Assembly: GCA_016186325.1 (NCBI GenBank)
Contig: JACPLW010000010.1
Coordinates: 22,856 to 86,855, forward strand
From: Parcubacteria group bacterium
GTDB taxonomy: Bacteria > Patescibacteriota > Minisyncoccia > UBA10092
DNA: 64,000 bases
Reading direction: 5' to 3'
Part shown: in pieces, positions 30,528-57,527 of the stretch
How the letters are laid out: each line of letters starts with the position of its first letter
Numbering within the stretch: position 1 is the stretch's first letter
The notes under the pieces: generated by a model
Database searches by the model: none
What the model was told of the DNA's origin: nothing
Seen by the model: the letters and a program-made list of their open reading frames with translations, nothing else
Position numbers and translations under genes: made by a program

Positions 30528-31721
30528 ATGGCAGAAAAATTTGAACGAACAAAGCCCCATCTTAATGTCGGAACCATCGGCCACGTTGACCATGGCAAAA
30601 CCACTTTAACGGCGGCTATTACCAAGATTCTTCATATGAAGGGCTTGGCGAAAAAAGCGGAGTCGGTTGACGATATTGATAAAGCGCCCGAGGAAAAAGC
30701 GCGCGGCATTACGATTCAGTTGCATCACTCCGAGTATGAATCAGAAAAGCGCCACTATGCGCACATCGACGCTCCAGGCCATGCCGATTACATCAAAAAC
30801 ATGATTACCGGCGCGGCGCAGATGGATGGCGCCATTCTCGTTGTTGCCGCGACCGACGGTCCGATGCCCCAAACAAGAGAACATATTCTTTTGGCGCGCC
30901 AGGTTGGCGTTCCGTCTTTGGTGGTTTTCTTGAACAAGGTTGATATGGTTTCCGATCCGGAACTGGTAGATTTGGTTGAAGCTGAAATTCGCGAACTTTT
31001 AACTAAATACGGATTTCCCGGCGATAAAGTGCCGGTAATCCGCGGTTCGGCTCTTAAGGCGCTTGAAGCTAAATCTCCTGATGACGAAGCGGCTAAACCA
31101 ATTCTTGAGTTAGTTCAAGCGCTTGATGATTTTATTCCCGAGCCGGTTCGCGAAATCGAAAAACCGTTTCTTATGCCGATTGAAGACATCTTTTCAATTG
31201 AAGGCCGCGGTACGGTTGTGACCGGCCGGATTGAAAGGGGCATGGTTAAACTTAACGATGAAGTTGATATAATCGGCTTAAGACCGAATCAAAAAACAAT
31301 CATTACCGGTATTGAAATGTTTAATAAGTCGCTTGACGAAGGCCGCGCGGGCGATAATGCCGGCATTCTTATCCGTGGTCTTAAGAAAGAAGACGTTGAA
31401 CGCGGCCAGGTTTTAGCCAAACCAGGTTCGGTAACACCGCACACAGAGTTTGACGCGGAAGTTTATATTCTTACTAAAGAAGAGGGCGGCCGGCATACTC
31501 CATTTTTTACGAACTACAAGCCGCAGTTTTATATCAGAACTACCGATGTTACCGGCGAAGTTGTTTTGGCTCCCGGAGTAGAGATGGTTATGCCCGGCGA
31601 TACCGTAAAATTCTCCGTTAAATTAATTGCTCCCGTGGCTCTGGAAGAACAGCAACGATTCGCTATTAGAGAGGGCGGTAAAACAGTCGGCGCCGGTGTT
31701 GTGACGAAAGTCAATAAATAA
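30528..31721 (+). CDS. tuf: Elongation factor Tu
   Basis: [18 protein letters not shown] and NKVD motifs. 397 aa. Confidence 0.95.
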
Positions 31722-31767
31722 TTATTTCCGGTTAGTTCTCTGTTCTTAGTTCTTAAAAACAAATTAA

Positions 31768-32094
31768 ATGGCTAAAGAAAAAGAAGAAATAAAACAAAGA
31801 ATAAGAATCAGAATCAAGGCCTACGATAACAAAATTATTGATTCTTCGGCAAAACAAATTGTAGAAACGGCTCAGCGCCAAGGCGCTCGGGTTTTGGGGC
31901 CGATTCCCTTGCCAACAGAAACAAAAAAATATACCGTAAATTCTTCCACTTTTGTCCATAAGAACAGCCGCGATCAATACGAGATGAGGGTTCATAAAAG
32001 ACTGATAGATATTTTCAGTCCTACCGCAAAAACTATTGACGCTTTGACCAGCCTTAATCTTCCGGCCGGAGTTGATATAGAAATAAAAATGTAA
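31768..32094 (+). CDS. rpsJ: 30S ribosomal protein S10
   Basis: [42 protein letters not shown]. Confidence 0.9.
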
Positions 32095-32162
32095 GGGCTT
32101 TCTCAAAAAACTCCGAGCCCGATGAGGGTTCGGAGTTTTTTGTCAGAAAACCTTATCCCGCC

Positions 32163-32780
32163 ATGGCGGGATTAAAAAATTTTATGAAGTTTATATTAGG
32201 AAAAAAAATCGGGATGACTCAAGTTTATAAGGGAAACAACATTGTCCCCGTAACTTTAATAGAAAGCGGGTCTAATTTTGTTACTCAAGTCAGGACAAGA
32301 GATAAAGATGGTTATTCAGCTGTTCAATTGGGTTTTGGTGGAGCAAAAAAAACCAATAAACCAAGATTAGGCCATCTTAAAAATCTTCCCCAGTTAAAAC
32401 ATTTGAAAGAATTTAGAGTTGATTCCACCGAACTTAAAACAGGTGATGAAATAGATGTCTCTAATTTAAATGCCGGAGAGAAAGTAACGGTAGTAGCAAT
32501 TTCAAAAGGCAAGGGATTTCAGGGTGTTGTTAAAAGGCATGGATTTCATGGCGGGCCAAAAAGCCACGGTCAAAAAGACCGCCATCGCGCTCCCGGCTCT
32601 ATTGGCGCATCGTGGCCCCAGCATGTCATAAAGGGAATGAGAATGGCGGGCCGGACGGGCGGCGATAAAATAACCGTTAAAAATGTGGAAATTGTTGAAA
32701 TTGATAAAGAAAATAATATTATTGCTCTTAAGGGGGCGGTGCCGGGAAGGCGGGGGACTTTAGTTATGATAAAAAGTTAA
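32163..32780 (+). CDS. rplC: 50S ribosomal protein L3
   Basis: KKIGMTQVY...GFQGVVKRHGFHGG. Confidence 0.9.
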   Translation: MAGLKNFMKFILGKKIGMTQVYKGNNIVPVTLIESGSNFVTQVRTRDKDGYSAVQLGFGGAKKTNKPRLGHLKNLPQLKHLKEFRVDSTELKTGDEIDVSNLNAGEKVTVVAISKGKGFQGVVKRHGFHGGPKSHGQKDRHRAPGSIGASWPQHVIKGMRMAGRTGGDKITVKNVEIVEIDKENNIIALKGAVPGRRGTLVMIKS

Positions 32781-32897
32781 CCCGCTCTGAAAATAAATAT
32801 TAGTTCTCTAAACAAAAATTAAAAATGAACAGCCCCCGCGTTGCGCGGGGGCCGACTCCGCACGATTGCGGGGTCTTAAGAAAGAACGGTTGGTTGT

Positions 32898-33569
32898 CTA
32901 GTAGCTGGGAGGTGTGGCGATCCACCGATCGAAACAGACGGTGCCGGTGGATCGCTGTTCGCACACCTGGGCTACGTAGCCCATACTTGGTGTCGAGCGG
33001 TGGTAGCCGCCGTAACTGTAGCCGCCACCGTTTCCGCTCAACGAGATGTTGAAGTTGAGCTGGGAGAGACTGATGGCTCGCTTGGGAGCCGGCGCCGGCG
33101 CGAAGGGTGCCTGGATCTCTTCCGGCCTGGGGGCCGGCGGAGAAAACATCGGCGGCAGGGTTGCCGCCGGCGCCGCAGGCCGCGGCGCGCAGAAGTAGTC
33201 GTCGGCCTTTGAGCACATCGTTGCCGGCGGCTGAACCGGCGTCGGGACGACCGCGGAAGGAGCCGGCGCACAGCAGCAGCACGTCGCTGCCGTGGTAGGC
33301 GCAGGTGCCGTGGGGACGACTGCCGGCGCCGGCGCAGCTGGCGCAGGCGCTGTCGGCGACACCTTCTTCGGAGCGGCGGCGGGCACCTTCTTCGCGGCCG
33401 GCTTGGCCGCGGGCTGAACCGCCTTCGAAGGCGGCGGCAGAACCACTCGCACGGCCTCGTGCCGCACGATGGCCGGGCCGTAGCCCGACAAGTTGAGCGC
33501 GATTAGAAGGCCGAGCGCGCCGAGCGCCATGAACAGAAAGTTCAGAACCCATCGCTTTGTCATCGTCAT
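32898..33569 (-). CDS. GC-rich foreign gene: Pro/Ala-rich secreted or membrane-anchored protein, inserted antisense between rplC and rplD
   Basis: N-terminal TM/signal MTMTKRWVLNFLFMALGALGLLIALN, then PAAKPAAKKVPAAAPKKVSPTAPAPAAP repeats. Its base composition is strikingly GC-rich against the AT-rich flanks. Own SD ggaggg and a minus-strand terminator at 32825-32865. The likely start is the second ATG at about 33563. Confidence 0.5.
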   Translation of the reverse strand: MTMTKRWVLNFLFMALGALGLLIALNLSGYGPAIVRHEAVRVVLPPPSKAVQPAAKPAAKKVPAAAPKKVSPTAPAPAAPAPAVVPTAPAPTTAATCCCCAPAPSAVVPTPVQPPATMCSKADDYFCAPRPAAPAATLPPMFSPPAPRPEEIQAPFAPAPAPKRAISLSQLNFNISLSGNGGGYSYGGYHRSTPSMGYVAQVCEQRSTGTVCFDRWIATPPSY

Positions 33570-33712
33570 CCCTCCTTAGGGATTTCGGATGTTACGGTTT
33601 AGAACGTTTTTTATTGACCACTTCGACTCAGCTCAGGGTCAATCCTGAGCTTGTTGAACGGATTGACAAACAACTTACTTTTGTACTAACATTGTATCAT
33701 ATTTTTTAAGTT

Positions 33713-34348
33713 ATGTCAAGGGTTAAAGTCTATAATCAAGAAGGAAAAGAAATAGCCGAAATAAAGCTTAATGAAGCCATTTTTGGGTTGCATTGGAACG
33801 CCGACTTGGTTCACCAAGCGGTAAGAGTTGCAATGGCTAATAAAAGGCAGGTTGTGGCCTCAACTAAGGATAGGAGCGAAGTTAGGGGCGGCGGACGCAA
33901 GCCATGGAGGCAAAAAGGCACCGGTCGGGCTCGTCACGGTTCAACTCGTTCCCCTTTATGGAAGGGCGGTGGCATTACTTTCGGACCGACAATCGAAAGA
34001 AACTTCAAATTAAAAATTAACAAGAAAATGGCGCGTAAAGCGTTTTTAACAGCCCTTTCGGCCAAAGCAAGAGACAATGAGATTTTGATTTTTGATGATT
34101 TGAAAATTCTATCGTTAAAGACGAAAGAAATGGCAAAGATTATGGCTAATTTCCCGCAAATAAAAAAAGGACTTTTGGTCTTATTTGAGAAAAACGATAT
34201 GCTTAAAAATGCCAGCCGCAATTTATTAAAACTTGAAGTCGTTAATATAGATAATCTTAATATTTTTAATGTTTTAAAGCATCGGCATCTTATTTTTACA
34301 AAGCCCGCCATTGAGTATTTAAATAAAAAATATGACGCTCCTAAATAA
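33713..34348 (+). CDS. rplD: 50S ribosomal protein L4
   Basis: Position in the operon and the L4-like sequence. Confidence 0.85.
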   Translation: MSRVKVYNQEGKEIAEIKLNEAIFGLHWNADLVHQAVRVAMANKRQVVASTKDRSEVRGGGRKPWRQKGTGRARHGSTRSPLWKGGGITFGPTIERNFKLKINKKMARKAFLTALSAKARDNEILIFDDLKILSLKTKEMAKIMANFPQIKKGLLVLFEKNDMLKNASRNLLKLEVVNIDNLNIFNVLKHRHLIFTKPAIEYLNKKYDAPK

Positions 34349-34730
34349 ATTATTCAAAACTAAAGACAAGGTAAAACCCTCCGTCGCCTCGGCGCCTGTT
34401 TCAGCCGTTCAACTTCCTGCTAAGGTTGACCCCGCCCTTAAGCTTAAGGGCGGGGTTGATGTAAAATCTAAGATTCTATTGCCCCATACTACGGAGAAAG
34501 CTCTAAACGGACAGAAATTTAACCAATACGTTTTTAAAGTTTCAACTGCCGCCAATAAAATTATGATTGCTAATGAAGTTAAAAGAACCTATAACGCCAA
34601 TGTTGCCGGAGTGAATATTATTAATGTCTTAAGAAAAGCCAGGCGAGTAGGAAAAACAGTCGGCTTTAAAAAGGGTTACAAAAAAGCTATTGTCACTTTA
34701 GCGAAAGGACAGACAATAGAACTAAAATAA
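34332..34730 (+). CDS. rplW: 50S ribosomal protein L23 (with N-terminal extension)
   Basis: The C-terminal half is L23-like and sits between rplD and rplB. Confidence 0.8.
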   Translation: MTLLNKLFKTKDKVKPSVASAPVSAVQLPAKVDPALKLKGGVDVKSKILLPHTTEKALNGQKFNQYVFKVSTAANKIMIANEVKRTYNANVAGVNIINVLRKARRVGKTVGFKKGYKKAIVTLAKGQTIELK

Positions 34731-34731
34731 A

Positions 34732-35562
34732 ATGGGAATAAAAATTTACAAACCAACATCAGAAGGAAAGCGCGGCATGACCGGCGTTGATTTTTCCGTT
34801 TTAACGGAAACTGAACCGGAAAAAAGTTTAACTTTGGGGAAATCAAAAACTTCGGCTCGCAACAATCGCGGACGAATTACCGTGCGGCATCAGGGCGGCG
34901 GGCACAAAAAACTTTACCGTATGCTGGATTTTAAACAGGATAAGTATAATATTCCGGCTCGGGTTGCTTCAATTGAATACGACCCTTATCGTACGGCCTT
35001 TATCTCTCTTGTCATTTACAAAGACGGTGAAAAAAGGTATATTTTAGCGCCGCGGGATATTAATGTTAACGATACGATTATTACCTCGGAAAACGCTCCT
35101 CTTAAAATTGGCAATCGCTTAATGCTTAAAAATATTCCGGTCGGCATTTTTGTTCATAATGCAGAGCTTTTTCCCGGCAAAGGAGGCCAAATCGGCCGAT
35201 CAGCCGGAAATGCAATTCAGGTAATGGCGCAGGAGGGCGATTATACTCACTTGCTTTTGCCTTCTACGGAAATAAGAAGAGTTCCTAACACCGGGTATGC
35301 CTCAATCGGCGCGCTTTCAAACAGCGAGTGGAACACAATCACAATTGGCAAGGCCGGCCGTTCCCGCTGGCTTGGCGTTAGGCCGACGGTAAGAGCTTCG
35401 GCGATGAATCCTCGCGACCATAAATACGGCGGAGGCGAAGGGCGTGCTTTAAGGGGCACGAAACGGCCAAAAACGAAATGGGGCAAGATTACCGGCGGAA
35501 GGAAAACCAGAAAGAAAAACAGGCAGTCAAATAAATTTATTGTAAGTAAAAGGAAAAGATAA
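34732..35562 (+). CDS. rplB: 50S ribosomal protein L2
   Basis: [19 protein letters not shown]...GGGEGR. Confidence 0.9.
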
Positions 35563-35564
35563 AT

Positions 35565-35921
35565 ATGAGCAGATCAATTAAAAAAGGTCCCTGGATAGAT
35601 CCTAAATTGCTCAAGAAAATGAGCAAAGTAAGATCCGGTGATAAGACGGTTATTAAAACATGGTCGCGAGATTCCGTAATTTCGCCAGAAATGCTCGGTT
35701 TTACTTTCGGCGTTCATAACGGCAAAGTCCACGTGCCGGTGACTATTATAGAGGAAATGGTTGGCCATCGCTTGGGCGAGTTTTCCTTAACCAGAAAATT
35801 TGTCAGACACGGCGGAAGGGTACAGCGGGAGCTTGAACAAAAAGAAGCGGCCGGCGCCGCCACGGGCGAGCCTCGCCCTGGAGAGCGGGAAGCGGTAAAA
35901 GCGTCCGCAACAGTTAAGTAA
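35565..35921 (+). CDS. rpsS: 30S ribosomal protein S19 with a GC-rich C-terminal extension
   Basis: [18 protein letters not shown]...HNGK. The extra tail is roughly 25 aa. Confidence 0.85.
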
Positions 35922-35929
35922 CAAAATTC

Positions 35930-36484
35930 ATGCAGTATAAATTTCATCTAAATAAACTAAGAATGGCGCCAAGAAAAACTAGATTGATTGCGAATCTTAT
36001 TAAAAGAATGCCGGTAACGCAGGCGGAAGCGCAATTGCAGTTTCAAAAAAGAAGGGCGGCCCTGCCAATTTTAAAATTGCTTAAATCGGGCGTGGCTTCA
36101 GCCGTCCATAATTTTAATTTATCGCCGGAAAATTTGTATGTTTTAAACATTTTTGTTGATGAGGGGCCGATGCTTAAGAGATTTGGGCCAAGAGCATTCG
36201 GCAGAGCTGGCGCCATTCATAAGAAAACTAGTCGAATTACTCTGATTTTGGAAGAAAGAATTATGGCGGGCGCCAAAAAGAGAGCAAAGATTATTAAGGA
36301 AATCAAATCGGAAAAGGAGGCGGTAAAAGAAGTGTCGAAATCTCGACGCTTTGGAAAAGTTGGGGCTCCGACCCGCTCCGCCGAAGCTCCAGCGAGGCGA
36401 GCCGAAGCATCGGAGGAAATTAAGCCGACTCGGAAAACCGAAAGTTTTACTAGGAGAATATTTAGAAGAAAGGTAATCGGATAA
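35930..36484 (+). CDS. rplV: 50S ribosomal protein L22 with a long C-terminal extension containing a palindromic-element-like segment
   Basis: L22 core plus a tail ...SRRFGKVGAPTRSAEAPARRAEASEE, encoded by ggggctccgacccgctccgcc. Confidence 0.8.
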   Translation: MQYKFHLNKLRMAPRKTRLIANLIKRMPVTQAEAQLQFQKRRAALPILKLLKSGVASAVHNFNLSPENLYVLNIFVDEGPMLKRFGPRAFGRAGAIHKKTSRITLILEERIMAGAKKRAKIIKEIKSEKEAVKEVSKSRRFGKVGAPTRSAEAPARRAEASEEIKPTRKTESFTRRIFRRKVIG

Positions 36485-56507: not shown

Positions 56508-56575
56508 TGCGGGCCGGACGGGATTTGAACCCGCGATCTCTGTCGTGACAGGGCAGCGCTTTGAACCGCATAACC
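56508..56575 (-). other. Truncated tRNA 3' fragment (T-arm plus acceptor 3' strand only), related to but distinct from tRNA-Asp
   Basis: GAGATCGCGGGTTCAAATCCCGTCCGGCCCGCA against tRNA-Asp GAGATCGCCGGTTCGAATCCGGTCGCCCGCGCA. The stem positions differ by compensatory changes. No 5' half is present. Confidence 0.5.
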
Positions 56576-56644
56576 AGAAATGAAATGGAATTCGGAGTCG
56601 GCGCTTATCAGAGAGCGTTAAAAGAACTGGAGTTTATTGATTGA
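56573..56644 (+). repeat. 72-bp direct repeat of the 3' end of the 55296-55829 gene (about 94% identical)
   Basis: accagaaatgaaatggaattcggagtcggcgcttatcagagagcgttaaaagaactggagtttattgattga, against the same segment at 55758-55829. Confidence 0.7.
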
Positions 56645-56929: not shown

Positions 56930-57014
56930 AGCTTGGAAAAATAAAAAAAATTAAGCGCATCCAATAAATAACTATATTTATTGGATTTTTTATTGATTGT
57001 GAGAATCTTTTGTG

Positions 57015-57089
57015 CGCGGGCGACCGGATTCGAACCGGCGATCTCCTCCTTGACAAGGAGGCGCTTTAAGCCAACTAAGCTACGCCCGC
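57015..57089 (-). tRNA. tRNA-Asp (anticodon GTC)
   Basis: Minus-strand GCGGGCGTAGCTTAGTTGGCTTAAAGCGCCTCCTTGTCAAGGAGGAGATCGCCGGTTCGAATCCGGTCGCCCGCG. Confidence 0.8.
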
Positions 57090-57092
57090 AAA

Positions 57093-57164
57093 TGCCGATG
57101 GCAGGAATCGAACCTGCGACGTTCGCTTTATGAGGGCGACGTTCTACCACTGAACTACATCGGC
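57093..57164 (-). tRNA. tRNA with anticodon CAT (elongator Met or Ile2)
   Basis: Minus-strand GCCGATGTAGTTCAGTGGTAGAACGTCGCCCTCATAAAGCGAACGTCGCAGGTTCGATTCCTGCCATCGGCA. Confidence 0.7.
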
Positions 57165-57207
57165 TTTTAATTTGACCATTCTACCAGAATTAACGTATAA
57201 TTTCAAC

Positions 57208-57279
57208 GCGGGGTAGAGCAGTCTGGTAGCTCGCGAGGCTCATAACCTTGAGGTCGTTGGTTCAAATCCAACCCCCGCA
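57208..57279 (+). tRNA. tRNA with anticodon CAT (elongator Met or Ile2), with its own TATAAT box
   Basis: GCGGGGTAGAGCAGTCTGGTAGCTCGCGAGGCTCATAACCTTGAGGTCGTTGGTTCAAATCCAACCCCCGCA. TATAAT at 57196-57201. Confidence 0.75.
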
Positions 57280-57527
57280 ACACTTCGACTCGCTTCGCTC
57301 GCTCAGTGCAGGCAAGTTGCTTTTTTCGTAAAAATTTGATAAAATAAGCGCATGCTTTTAGGCACAAGACACGCTTATTTAATAGCCCTTATTTTTTCAA
57401 GCGTTCTGGCCTGGTCTTCTTTTTTTGGCATTGTTTTTTTTACCAATCCCGCCGATGCCGGTGTTCTCGGAGTTTTGACCTTGTATGTTAGTCTTGGCAT
57501 CGGATTGGGCAGTTTCGGACTCATTAT

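What the first reader, a model, noticed from the sequence alone, without database searches (positions are those of the whole stretch)
32790..33610. GC-rich foreign gene inserted antisense between rplC and rplD in the S10 operon
A stretch of about 800 bp differs sharply in composition from the AT-rich flanks. It carries its own SD, signal/TM peptide and terminator. It encodes a Pro/Ala/Lys-rich repeat protein (PAAKPAAKKVPAAAPKK...) on the opposite strand. An insertion into one of the most conserved operons in bacteria is remarkable. It means either a horizontal acquisition or a chimeric assembly.
Basis: seen in the sequence. Interest (0 to 1): 0.7.

Follow-up and report, generated by a model that had tools for sequence, protein, structure and literature searches.

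The report
Conserved antisense gene splitting ribosomal operon
The GC-rich block between the ribosomal genes rplC and rplD is not an assembly error or a recent foreign insert: it is an old, self-contained antisense gene for a small membrane-anchored envelope protein, found at exactly this spot in a whole clade of groundwater ultra-small (CPR) bacteria.

Summary
Observation confirmed. Window 32828-33590 is 62-75% GC in a 41% GC window (z=7.8). It lies between rplC and rplD and carries a minus-strand gene with a Shine-Dalgarno (SD) site, a TM anchor and a terminator.

Interpretation only partly right. Five independent assemblies from five sequencing runs cross both junctions at 99.97-100% identity, so it is not a chimera.

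All 16 related loci whose context I could read have a homologous GC-rich gene, or a split two-gene version. These loci come from at least 6 studies, with L3/L4 60-94% identical. In every one the gene is antisense at the same rplC/rplD junction. Gene distances co-vary with flanking rplD distances (Mantel r=0.69), so this is not a recent transfer. More distant relatives lack it.

The product (221 aa from ATG 33563) has:
- an N-terminal TM helix;
- a conserved juxtamembrane motif;
- a disordered Pro/Ala stalk;
- a two-Cys beta-hairpin knob.

It matches no Pfam, NCBIfam or PDB family.

A 57-nt block, nearly invariant across the clade, holds two overlapping divergent near-consensus promoters. One serves the cassette and one serves rplD, so the S10 operon is split there.

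About half of the GC excess comes from amino-acid composition and half from GC-ending codons. Why that codon bias survives is unresolved. Function is inferred, not shown.

The parts
32184..32780 (+). rplC (ribosomal protein L3). The mechanical ORF starts at 32163, but homologues begin MKFILG..., which corresponds to ATG 32184.
   Evidence: Pfam PF00297; ORF list; start of the L010 homologue.
32820..32854 (-). Intrinsic terminator of the antisense gene: hairpin 32830-32854 (11 pairs, 10 G-C) followed by a T-run at 32829-32820. On the plus strand it has no T-run, so it should not stop readthrough from rplC.
   Evidence: The hairpin is conserved in every aligned cassette locus, and 5 of 10 pairs show compensatory changes.
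32898..33563 (-). CDS of the antisense gene: 221 aa plus stop. The ORF extends to 33569 (223 aa), but that ATG abuts the SD.
   Evidence: GC3 0.79 exceeds GC1/2. Substitutions among 10 homologues by codon position are 474/426/846, and dN/dS is mostly 0.1-0.6. Gene calls in independent assemblies give 221 aa.
33489..33560 (-). N-terminal signal-anchor TM helix, residues 2-25. K3 and R4 precede it, which predicts N-in topology with the rest of the protein outside.
   Evidence: AlphaFold2 helix 2-25, pLDDT 82-96; conserved in the family.
33432..33494 (-). Juxtamembrane motif NL(A/S)G(Y/F)GPAxVxHExVR(V/I)(V/I)LPP, residues 24-44. This is the best-conserved part of the family.
   Evidence: Invariant or near-invariant columns in A2; alignment of 10 loci.
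33105..33431 (-). Disordered Pro/Ala-rich stalk, residues 45-153. It contains CCCC (residues 95-98; 33270-33281), the C117-x7-C125 loop CSKADDYFC (33189-33215), and ends with the conserved (I/V)QAP motif.
   Evidence: pLDDT 46-62 with no secondary structure. Variable in length and sequence between homologues. The CSxADxYxC and QAPFAP motifs are shared with P0001, P0005, P0006, P0008 and P0012.
32901..33104 (-). C-terminal module, residues 154-221. It corresponds to the separate small lipoprotein gene ('gene B') of the split-form relatives. It ends in a beta-hairpin (residues 196-215; 32919-32978) with C201 and C210 facing each other across the strands.
   Evidence: Split loci L018-L024, L026 and L029 encode gene A plus a 63-73 aa lipobox protein carrying the same VCExRxxGxxCFDRWI motif. 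AlphaFold2 strands 196-204 and 207-215, with mean pLDDT 93 over residues 201-210.
33570..33577 (-). Shine-Dalgarno AAGGAGGG, 6 nt upstream of ATG 33563. It can pair with an upstream AUCCCU in a small hairpin.
   Evidence: Sequence; conserved in most of 11 aligned loci; fold.
33578..33684 (-). Predicted 5' UTR of the antisense mRNA. It includes a stem-loop GCUCAGG-N6-CCUGAGC (33631-33650) inside a ~55-nt stretch missing from most relatives but present in similar form in L035.
   Evidence: Alignment; fold z=-3.6. The TSS is predicted, not mapped.
33691..33719 (-). Promoter of the antisense gene. The -35 TTGACA (33719-33714) is the complement of rplD codons 1-2 (ATGTCAA). A 17-nt spacer follows, then an extended -10 TGaTACAAT (33699-33691).
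   Evidence: 11/12 consensus match with TG. The block is conserved in all cassette loci and absent from cassette-less relatives.
33663..33692 (+). Clade-specific promoter for rplD and downstream genes: -35 TTGACA (33663-33668), 18-nt spacer, -10 TAACAT (33687-33692). Its -10 overlaps the minus-strand -10 by 2 bp. It leaves rplD a leader of about 13 nt with no SD.
   Evidence: TTGACAAACAAC...TATCATATTTTT..ATGTCAA is nearly invariant across loci whose L4 proteins are only 60-87% identical.
33713..34348 (+). rplD (ribosomal protein L4).
   Evidence: Pfam PF00573, E 2.3e-65.

Best explanation
This is a clade-specific, vertically inherited antisense transcription unit lodged between rplC and rplD in a lineage of low-GC groundwater CPR/Parcubacteria-like bacteria.

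Shown:
- It is real. Independent assemblies agree across both junctions.
- It is protein-coding on the minus strand and under purifying selection.
- It has a conserved near-consensus promoter, SD and intrinsic terminator.
- In relatives it exists either as one fused gene (as here) or as two genes: A, a TM anchor plus Pro/Ala stalk plus Cys-loop; and B, a small lipoprotein with a paralogous Cys-loop.
- It always occupies the same slot and co-diverges with the flanking rplD.
- It always comes with a conserved second promoter that restarts transcription at rplD.

Inferred:
- The product is a bitopic envelope protein. A short cytoplasmic N-terminus and one TM helix are followed by an extended Pro/Ala stalk outside the membrane.
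- The stalk presents small cysteine-stapled knobs (C117-C125 loop; C201-C210 beta-hairpin). This would act as a wall- or S-layer-spanning tether or surface-contact module.
- The A-B fusion implies that the anchor and the lipoprotein work together physically.
- The two promoters are divergent with overlapping -10 elements, and each -35 lies in the other's transcribed region. RNA polymerase can therefore occupy only one orientation at a time.
- No plus-strand terminator separates rplC from the cassette. Cassette expression is thus probably coupled inversely to ribosomal-protein transcription, through promoter competition, head-on collision and antisense RNA.

The GC anomaly is an old, shared property. 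About half comes from the 36% Pro+Ala content and half from G/C-ending codons. The cause of the codon bias is unresolved.
For: Reality of the join:
- L001, L002, L003 and L007 span both junctions completely. L008 spans the left junction and the gene, up to 33660. All are 99.97-100% identical to the window.

Coding:
- GC3 exceeds GC1/2 in the 221/223-aa frame.
- Differences by codon position are 474/426/846, and dN/dS is mostly 0.1-0.6.

Family:
- 19 clusters at E<=1e-3 among 1.84 billion representatives, best 54% identity at E 1e-36.
- Shared N-terminal and C-terminal motifs.

Synteny:
- All 16 loci read have rplD<-[cassette->]<-rplC, with cassette GC3 0.55-0.80 against flank GC3 0.26-0.58. 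The loci are L015/16, L017, L018-L025, L026-28, L029, L030, L031, L032-34 and L035.
- Relatives with L4 at 47-59% identity (L009-L013) lack both the cassette and the promoter block.

Vertical descent:
- Mantel r=0.69, p=0.0008 between cassette and rplD N-terminal nucleotide distances.

Signals:
- Promoters and terminator.
- Conservation of the promoter block and SD.
- Terminator covariation in 5 of 10 pairs.
- All five terminator-like hits in 32000-34400 are on the minus strand.

Structure:
- TM helix 2-25 and hairpin 196-215 at high pLDDT, with a disordered stalk between.

Split versus fused forms.

Bidirectional-promoter exclusivity: PMC12825309.

Codon analysis: expected GC 57.5% and GC3 0.49 with host codon preferences, against observed 68% and 0.78.
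Against: - No expression data. TSSs, promoter competition and readthrough are predictions from sequence.
- No family, structure or named homologue gives a function. Apart from the helix and hairpin the model is low-confidence (mean pLDDT 61, pTM 0.22).
- The disulfides are inferred from geometry only.
- The predicted TSS spacing (~15 bp) is not one of the commonest spacings reported for E. coli bidirectional promoters (18, 10, 23 bp).
- Carriers were found by searching with the cassette itself. Cassette-less members inside the clade could have been missed.
- The Mantel test uses short segments (38 and 41 codons).
Confidence: 0.75

Rival explanations
1. Relic of one ancient horizontal transfer from a high-GC donor into the ancestor of the clade. 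The GC-rich codon usage is simply not yet ameliorated and is slowly decaying. This concerns the origin and the GC anomaly only, and is compatible with the anatomy given in the best explanation.
For: The codon usage looks wholly foreign: K 9/9 AAG, I 6/6 ATC, N 5/5 AAC, Y 7/7 TAC, against 16-40% G/C-ending for those amino acids in flanking genes. Parsimony counts at third positions show more S>W (35) than W>S (13) changes, which suggests net erosion. More distant relatives lack the cassette.
Against: No donor or out-of-context homologue was found among 1.84 billion representative proteins, nor in plasmid or viral collections. Synonymous sites of the flanking rplC/rplD are near saturation between the window and other carriers (pS 0.53-0.78). 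A neutral two-state relaxation toward host GC3 (~0.38) then predicts about 0.5 even from a 0.95 start (my calculation), yet all carriers keep 0.55-0.80. In columns with invariant amino acids the S>W:W>S ratio is only 12:8, and parsimony is biased toward inferring S>W.
Confidence: 0.35
2. The high GC is actively maintained because the DNA or RNA itself matters. Possible roles: a very stable sense/antisense duplex with readthrough rplC transcripts; a G-rich, Rho-resistant untranslated spacer that lets polymerase reach rplD; or an R-loop or roadblock insulator that partitions the S10 operon. The protein would be a co-resident or secondary function.
For: GC3 stays at 0.55-0.80 in every lineage despite near-saturated synonymous divergence of the backbone. 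The plus strand of the island is G-skewed (+0.05 to +0.16). There is no plus-strand terminator between rplC and rplD.
Against: Substitution patterns fit protein-level selection in one minus-strand frame. The stalk varies freely in length and sequence. No Rfam match reaches threshold. The cassette has its own conserved promoter, SD and terminator. The clade-specific rplD promoter makes readthrough unnecessary.
Confidence: 0.2
3. Recent horizontal acquisition by this particular genome.
For: Sharp compositional contrast with a complete expression unit.
Against: The gene sits at the same site in 16 diverged loci from at least 6 studies and co-diverges with rplD. There are no direct or inverted terminal repeats and no integrase, transposase or tRNA at the borders.
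Confidence: 0.02
4. Chimeric assembly or contamination joining a high-GC fragment into a CPR contig.
For: None beyond the composition jump. One short contig (L004) does end at 32807, near the left edge.
Against: Five independent assemblies from five runs cross the junctions identically. Diverged homologous loci in other projects show the same architecture.
Confidence: 0.01
5. Spurious ORF: a GC-rich non-coding spacer in which long ORFs arise by chance.
For: GC-rich DNA gives long ORFs in several frames. A 250-aa ORF in another minus-strand frame exists here.
Against: Only the 221-aa frame has the highest GC at position 3 and an excess of third-position substitutions. It also has N- and C-terminal protein motifs conserved across 50%-identity clusters, a conserved SD at the right distance and confidently predicted TM and hairpin elements.
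Confidence: 0.03

Closest known systems
Bitopic envelope proteins with a Pro-rich spacer (TonB, FtsN, RodZ-type architecture)
   Same: Short cytoplasmic N-terminus, a single N-terminal TM anchor, a long Pro-rich extended linker and a small C-terminal domain outside the membrane. FtsN's C-terminal domain also carries a disulfide (my background knowledge).
   Different: No TonB C-terminal or SPOR domain was detected. Only 1 of 18 family members gives a sub-threshold TIGR01352 hit (E 0.088), which is attributable to low complexity. The C-terminal element is only a ~20-residue two-Cys hairpin. CPR cells are not known to have the outer-membrane partners of TonB.
Bacterial bidirectional promoters (pseudo-symmetric overlapping -10 elements; PMC12825309)
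   Same: Two near-consensus sigma-70-type promoters on opposite strands with overlapping -10 hexamers, each -35 lying in the other's transcribed region. Polymerase binding in one orientation excludes the other.
   Different: Predicted TSS spacing is ~15 bp rather than the commonest 18, 10 or 23 bp. One arm drives the ribosomal-protein genes from rplD onward, and its partner's -35 is built from the rplD start codon. Nothing has been mapped experimentally.
Classical horizontally acquired genomic islets with atypical GC (amelioration model of Lawrence and Ochman; my background knowledge)
   Same: Sharp GC and codon-usage contrast with the host, in a self-contained expression unit.
   Different: No mobility genes or boundary repeats. 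A fixed position across a deep clade. Co-divergence with the flanks. GC3 has not relaxed to the host value although flanking synonymous sites are near saturation.
Small bacterial lipoproteins (lipobox proteins)
   Same: In split-form relatives, gene B has a typical signal peptide ending in a lipobox such as A-G-C. The window protein's residues 154-221 are homologous to the mature part.
   Different: The window's fused protein has no lipobox. The module is tethered through the gene-A TM helix and stalk instead.

Membership tests
Assembly chimera / contamination | The junctions are not reproduced in independent assemblies. | tested here: not met
   L001, L002, L003 and L007 cover both junctions at 99.97-100% identity; L008 covers the left junction and reaches 33660.
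Recently acquired genomic island | Atypical base composition and codon usage. | tested here: met
   68% GC against 41%. GC3 0.78 against 0.33-0.46 in flanking genes.
Recently acquired genomic island | Mobility signatures at the borders: integrase or transposase, tRNA target, direct or inverted terminal repeats. | tested here: not met
   No such ORFs. Only weak AT-rich chance repeats. Nearest tRNAs are more than 10 kb away.
Recently acquired genomic island | Patchy presence among close relatives and incongruence with the host phylogeny. | tested here: not met
   Present at the same site in all 16 related loci read. Mantel r=0.69, p=0.0008. Caveat: the loci were found through the cassette itself.
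TonB family | C-terminal TonB domain (TIGR01352 / Pfam TonB_C). | tested here: not met
   No Pfam hit in any of 18 members. One sub-threshold NCBIfam hit at E 0.088.
TonB family | N-terminal TM anchor plus Pro-rich spacer. | tested here: met
   Helix 2-25 and a disordered Pro/Ala stalk.
Bacterial lipoprotein | Signal peptide ending in a lipobox Cys. | tested here: not met
   Absent from the window protein. Present in the separate gene B of split-form relatives (e.g. ...ATAGC...AAAGC).
Intrinsic (Rho-independent) terminator | GC-rich hairpin followed by a U-tract, with pairing conserved in evolution. | tested here: met
   11-bp stem plus TTCATTTTTA. 5 of 10 pairs show compensatory changes across 9 loci.
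Bidirectional promoter | Opposite-strand promoters with overlapping -10 elements. | tested here: met
   Plus-strand -10 at 33687-33692 and minus-strand -10 at 33691-33696. Both have a TTGACA -35. Conserved in all cassette loci.
Bidirectional promoter | Divergent transcription start sites mapped about 10-23 bp apart, with mutual interference. | not testable with these tools
   Needs dRNA-seq, 5'-RACE or reporter assays.
Any curated protein family (Pfam, NCBIfam, PADLOC) or solved structure | A significant profile match. | tested here: not met
   Only low-complexity noise.
Structured RNA family (Rfam) | A covariance-model match at the gathering score. | tested here: not met
   Best hits in 32000-34400 are 20.6-23.1 bits against gathering scores of 40-45.

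The most novel reading that the evidence does not exclude
The cassette is a clade-defining regulatory and structural module whose GC-rich codon usage is actively maintained by selection at the nucleic-acid level. By sitting head-on inside the S10 cluster behind a shared bidirectional promoter, it would switch the cell between making ribosomal proteins (rplD onward) and making a surface tether. The GC-rich sense/antisense pair would act as the interference element. This would be a hard-wired link between growth rate and cell envelope (or host attachment) in episymbiotic CPR bacteria. It would also be a rare case of a protein-coding gene holding a foreign base composition indefinitely.
Probability: 0.15. 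Interest if true: 0.8.

Novelty: new variant of a known kind. Interest (0 to 1): 0.5.

Why it matters
The S10-spc ribosomal cluster is the backbone of CPR phylogenomics and is usually treated as invariant. Here a whole lineage carries an uncharacterised envelope-protein cassette inside it, with a compensating internal promoter that breaks the operon at rplD.

Practical points:
- A GC spike at this junction is a lineage marker. It should not trigger contig splitting or contamination filters.
- The protein family (TM anchor, NLAGYGPAxVxHExVRVVLPP motif, Pro/Ala stalk, two-Cys hairpin; fused or split with a lipoprotein) is a candidate surface component in organisms whose envelope and host-contact biology is largely unknown.
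- GC-ending codons persist in a 40% GC genome while flanking synonymous sites are near saturation. This makes the locus a clean natural test case for amelioration against selection on base composition.

Tried and rejected
- Word-indexed homology search with the whole 223-aa protein returned nothing, because 8000 low-complexity candidates swamped it. An exact look-up of the 223-aa form also failed, because public gene calls use the 221-aa start. Both problems were solved by the exhaustive HMMER search and the 221-aa look-up.
I repeated it with the 10-sequence N-terminal set.
- Pfam, NCBIfam, PADLOC, PDB sequence, plasmid tblastn and viral contig searches gave no meaningful match.
- Rfam on the region gave only sub-threshold noise.
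- The repeat search for target-site duplications or terminal inverted repeats found only short chance matches. A mobile element is rejected.
- The 5'-UTR palindrome is not a dispersed repeat in the window.
- There is no paralogue of the gene elsewhere in the 64-kb window.
- I first read the persistent GC3 as clear evidence of active maintenance. Parsimony counts (S>W 35 against W>S 13) made me downgrade this to 'unresolved'.
- I did not run a fold search, because the model is confident only for one helix and one hairpin.
- Literature searches found no description of this insertion.
Full report
**1.

The window averages 41% GC. The 500-bp bin 33001-33500 is 71.2% GC, against a next-highest bin of 51.8% (z=7.8). 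At finer scale GC rises at about 32828 and falls at about 33590, peaking at 0.72-0.745.

The block fills most of a 932-bp gap between rplC (Pfam L3) and rplD (Pfam L4, E 2e-65), both on the plus strand.

On the minus strand an ORF runs from 33569 to 32898.
- Only this frame has its highest GC at codon position 3 (0.63/0.62/0.79).
- No plus-strand ORF exceeds 75 aa.
- A Shine-Dalgarno (SD) site AAGGAGGG (33577-33570) abuts the first ATG and lies 6 nt from the second. The start is therefore 33563 (221 aa, MTKRW...), as in homologues and in public gene calls.
- A terminator follows the stop: an 11-bp stem at 32854-32830, then TTCATTTTTA.

**2. Not a chimera**

Exact look-ups of the flanking proteins and of the 221-aa product found contigs assembled independently from five sequencing runs.
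- L001, L002, L003 and L007 cover both junctions.
- L008 covers the left junction and the gene up to 33660.
- All are 99.97-100% identical to the window.
- One short contig (L004) ends at 32807, close to the left edge.

**3. Not a recent import**

The first word-indexed search found nothing because low-complexity candidates swamped it. An exhaustive HMMER scan of 1.84 billion representative proteins found 19 clusters, the best at 54% identity and E 1e-36. Two of these (P0010, P0019) look spurious.

The true members share three things:
- a TM segment;
- the juxtamembrane motif NLAGYGPAxVxHExVRVVLPP;
- a variable Pro/Ala-rich stretch, usually followed by a two-Cys C-terminal motif such as GWTPGHVARVCEQRSTGxxCFDRWI.

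I read the genomic context of 16 related loci, and in all 16 the gene lies antisense between rplD and rplC of a low-GC genome. The loci are L015/16, L017, L018-L025, L026-28, L029, L030, L031, L032-34 and L035. They come from two further Logan run series, JGI metagenomes, Hainich groundwater, two ENA groundwater projects and an NCBI assembly.
- L3/L4 in these genomes are 60-94% identical to the window's.
- The cassette genes are 52-71% GC, with GC3 0.55-0.80. Their flanks have GC3 0.26-0.58.
- More distant relatives (L4 47-59% identical; Parcubacteria, Portnoybacteria and 'Saccharibacteria'-labelled MAGs) lack it.
- Nucleotide distances in the cassette N-terminus correlate with those in the adjacent rplD N-terminus (Mantel r=0.69, p=0.0008). 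This fits vertical co-divergence.
- No relative was found in plasmid or viral collections, and there is no paralogue elsewhere in the window.
- The borders carry no repeats or mobility genes.

**4. It is a protein-coding gene under selection**

Over 44 aligned N-terminal codons in 10 loci, differences by codon position are 474/426/846. Pairwise dN/dS is mostly 0.1-0.6.

**5. Anatomy of the product**

AlphaFold2 was run with the family as its alignment.
- Residues 2-25 form a confident TM helix. K3 and R4 precede it, so the topology is probably N-in.
- Residues ~45-190 have no regular structure.
- Strands 196-204 and 207-215 form a confident beta-hairpin. C201 and C210 are symmetric about the turn, which suggests a stapling disulfide (inference).
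- The disordered region contains CCCC (95-98) and a conserved loop C117-SKADDYF-C125.

Relatives come in two architectures.
- Fused: one gene, as here and in L015, L017, L030, L031 and L035.
- Split: gene A has an optional Pro-rich cytoplasmic extension, the TM helix, a stalk and a Cys-loop, and often ends ...IPPQAP. Gene B is a 63-73 aa lipoprotein with a lipobox and a paralogous Cys-loop.

The window protein keeps the junction as ...EEIQAP|FAPAP.... Residues 154-221 therefore correspond to mature gene B. Such a fusion argues that A and B act together.

No Pfam, NCBIfam, PADLOC or PDB family matches. The nearest analogy is architectural: TonB/FtsN-like bitopic proteins with Pro-rich spacers. 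Membership of that family fails on the defining C-terminal domain.

**6. Regulatory anatomy**

The aligned cassette loci share the block TTGACAAACAAC-N-CTAACATTcTATCATATTTTTtAAaTTATGTCAAG with only scattered substitutions. The cassette-less relatives lack it.
- On the plus strand it reads as -35 TTGACA (33663-68), an 18-nt spacer and -10 TAACAT (33687-92). This leaves rplD a leader of about 13 nt with no SD.
- On the minus strand it reads as -35 TTGACA (33719-14), which is the complement of the rplD start ATGTCAA. A 17-nt spacer and an extended -10 TGaTACAAT follow.
- The two -10 elements overlap, and each -35 lies in the other's transcript. This is the geometry of bacterial bidirectional promoters, where one polymerase binding excludes the other (PMC12825309).
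- The cassette terminator is conserved, with compensatory changes in 5 of 10 pairs. It has no U-tract in the plus direction, and no plus-strand terminator-like site was found between rplC and rplD.

Two conclusions follow.
- In this clade the S10 cluster is split, and transcription restarts at rplD. This follows from the conserved promoter sequence.
- Cassette expression is probably antagonised by ribosomal-protein transcription, through promoter competition, head-on collision and antisense RNA. This is inference.

**7. The GC anomaly**

With the codon preferences of eight flanking translation genes, this protein would be 57.5% GC with GC3 0.49. Observed values are 68% and 0.78.
- About half the excess is amino-acid composition (36% Pro+Ala).
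- The other half is codon choice: K 9/9 AAG, I 6/6 ATC, N 5/5 AAC, Y 7/7 TAC, Q 6/6 CAG.

All carriers share the bias. Yet flanking rplC/rplD synonymous sites are near saturation between the window and other carriers (pS 0.53-0.78). A simple neutral relaxation toward host GC3 would predict about 0.5 or less (my calculation), which hints at a retaining force.

Against that, parsimony at third positions gives S>W 35 against W>S 13, or 12 against 8 in columns with invariant amino acids. Allowing for parsimony bias, this is compatible with slow erosion of an anciently foreign gene. I leave this unresolved.

**8. Verdict**

The chimera reading is refuted and the recent-transfer reading is not supported.

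What is present is a previously undescribed, clade-conserved antisense envelope-protein cassette that splits the S10 operon and carries its own promoter, SD and terminator. Its function and the persistence of its base composition remain open.

I rate interest as moderate. The finding is solid and somewhat surprising for operon conservation and CPR envelope biology, but it is an orphan gene without a demonstrated role.

Noticed in passing
window 32104-32141 (between rpsJ stop 32094 and rplC): A strong hairpin (ACTCCGAGCCC-GATGA-GGGTTCGGAGT) flanked by an A-run and a T-run, folding at -34.5 kcal/mol with its flanks. It looks like a bidirectional terminator or attenuator between rpsJ and rplC. 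A comparable GC-rich hairpin sits in the same gap in the other cassette loci and in the more distant relatives L009-L013. The tool's own terminator scan did not list it.
   Followed up: partly
window 32155-32172 and 32163-32186: The palindrome ATCCCGCCATGGCGGGAT overlaps the first ATG of the mechanical rplC ORF. Homologues start at MKFILG (ATG 32184), so the annotated 205-aa L3 is probably 7 residues too long. Public gene calls use yet another start, giving 188 aa.
   Followed up: partly
L010 2700-2972 and L011 2749-2925: Cassette-less relatives also have enlarged rplC-rplD gaps (~380-470 bp). These contain unrelated small antisense ORFs: 90 aa in L010, and a 58-aa ORF with two hydrophobic segments in L011. 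The junction may be a recurrent landing site in Parcubacteria, or these may be chance ORFs.
   Followed up: no
L018 1252-1523, L020 3727-4017, L024 1047-1327: Split-form loci carry an extra 200-290 nt of moderately GC-rich sequence between the cassette terminator and rplC. It includes a 47-aa ORF identical in L018 and L020. Its nature is unknown.
   Followed up: no
window 33631-33650; L035 ~315-350: A 5'-UTR stem-loop (GCUCAGG-N6-CCUGAGC) lies inside a ~55-nt stretch absent from most relatives. L035 has a similar stem-loop (CCUCAGGGUCGUCCUGAGG) at the same place. It is not a dispersed repeat in the window.
   Followed up: partly
window 33701-33715: rplD has no recognisable Shine-Dalgarno sequence and would have only a ~13-nt leader from the predicted promoter. 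Its first two codons (ATG TCA) are fixed across the clade and double as the -35 of the opposing promoter.
   Followed up: partly
window 35565-35921 (rpsS) and 35930-36484 (rplV): S19 and L22 carry long low-complexity Ala/Glu/Lys/Arg-rich C-terminal tails (e.g. ...[30 protein letters not shown]). These produce local GC bumps of 0.49-0.56.
   Followed up: no
window 30528-36484 versus 32898-33563: The eight flanking translation genes contain no cysteine at all (0 of 1579 counted codons). The 221-aa cassette protein has eight.
   Followed up: no
L004 (window 31821-32807) and L008 (last 19 nt): One independent contig stops at 32807, just at the left edge of the GC-rich block. The final 19 nt of L008 do not match the window inside rplC. 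This could reflect strain heterogeneity or assembly-graph breaks caused by the GC jump.
   Followed up: no
window 56518-56576 (minus strand): A truncated tRNA-like Rfam hit sits exactly at the gathering score (29.1 bits, E 0.057) and was not called by ARAGORN. It lies near a tRNA cluster at 57014-57281.
   Followed up: no
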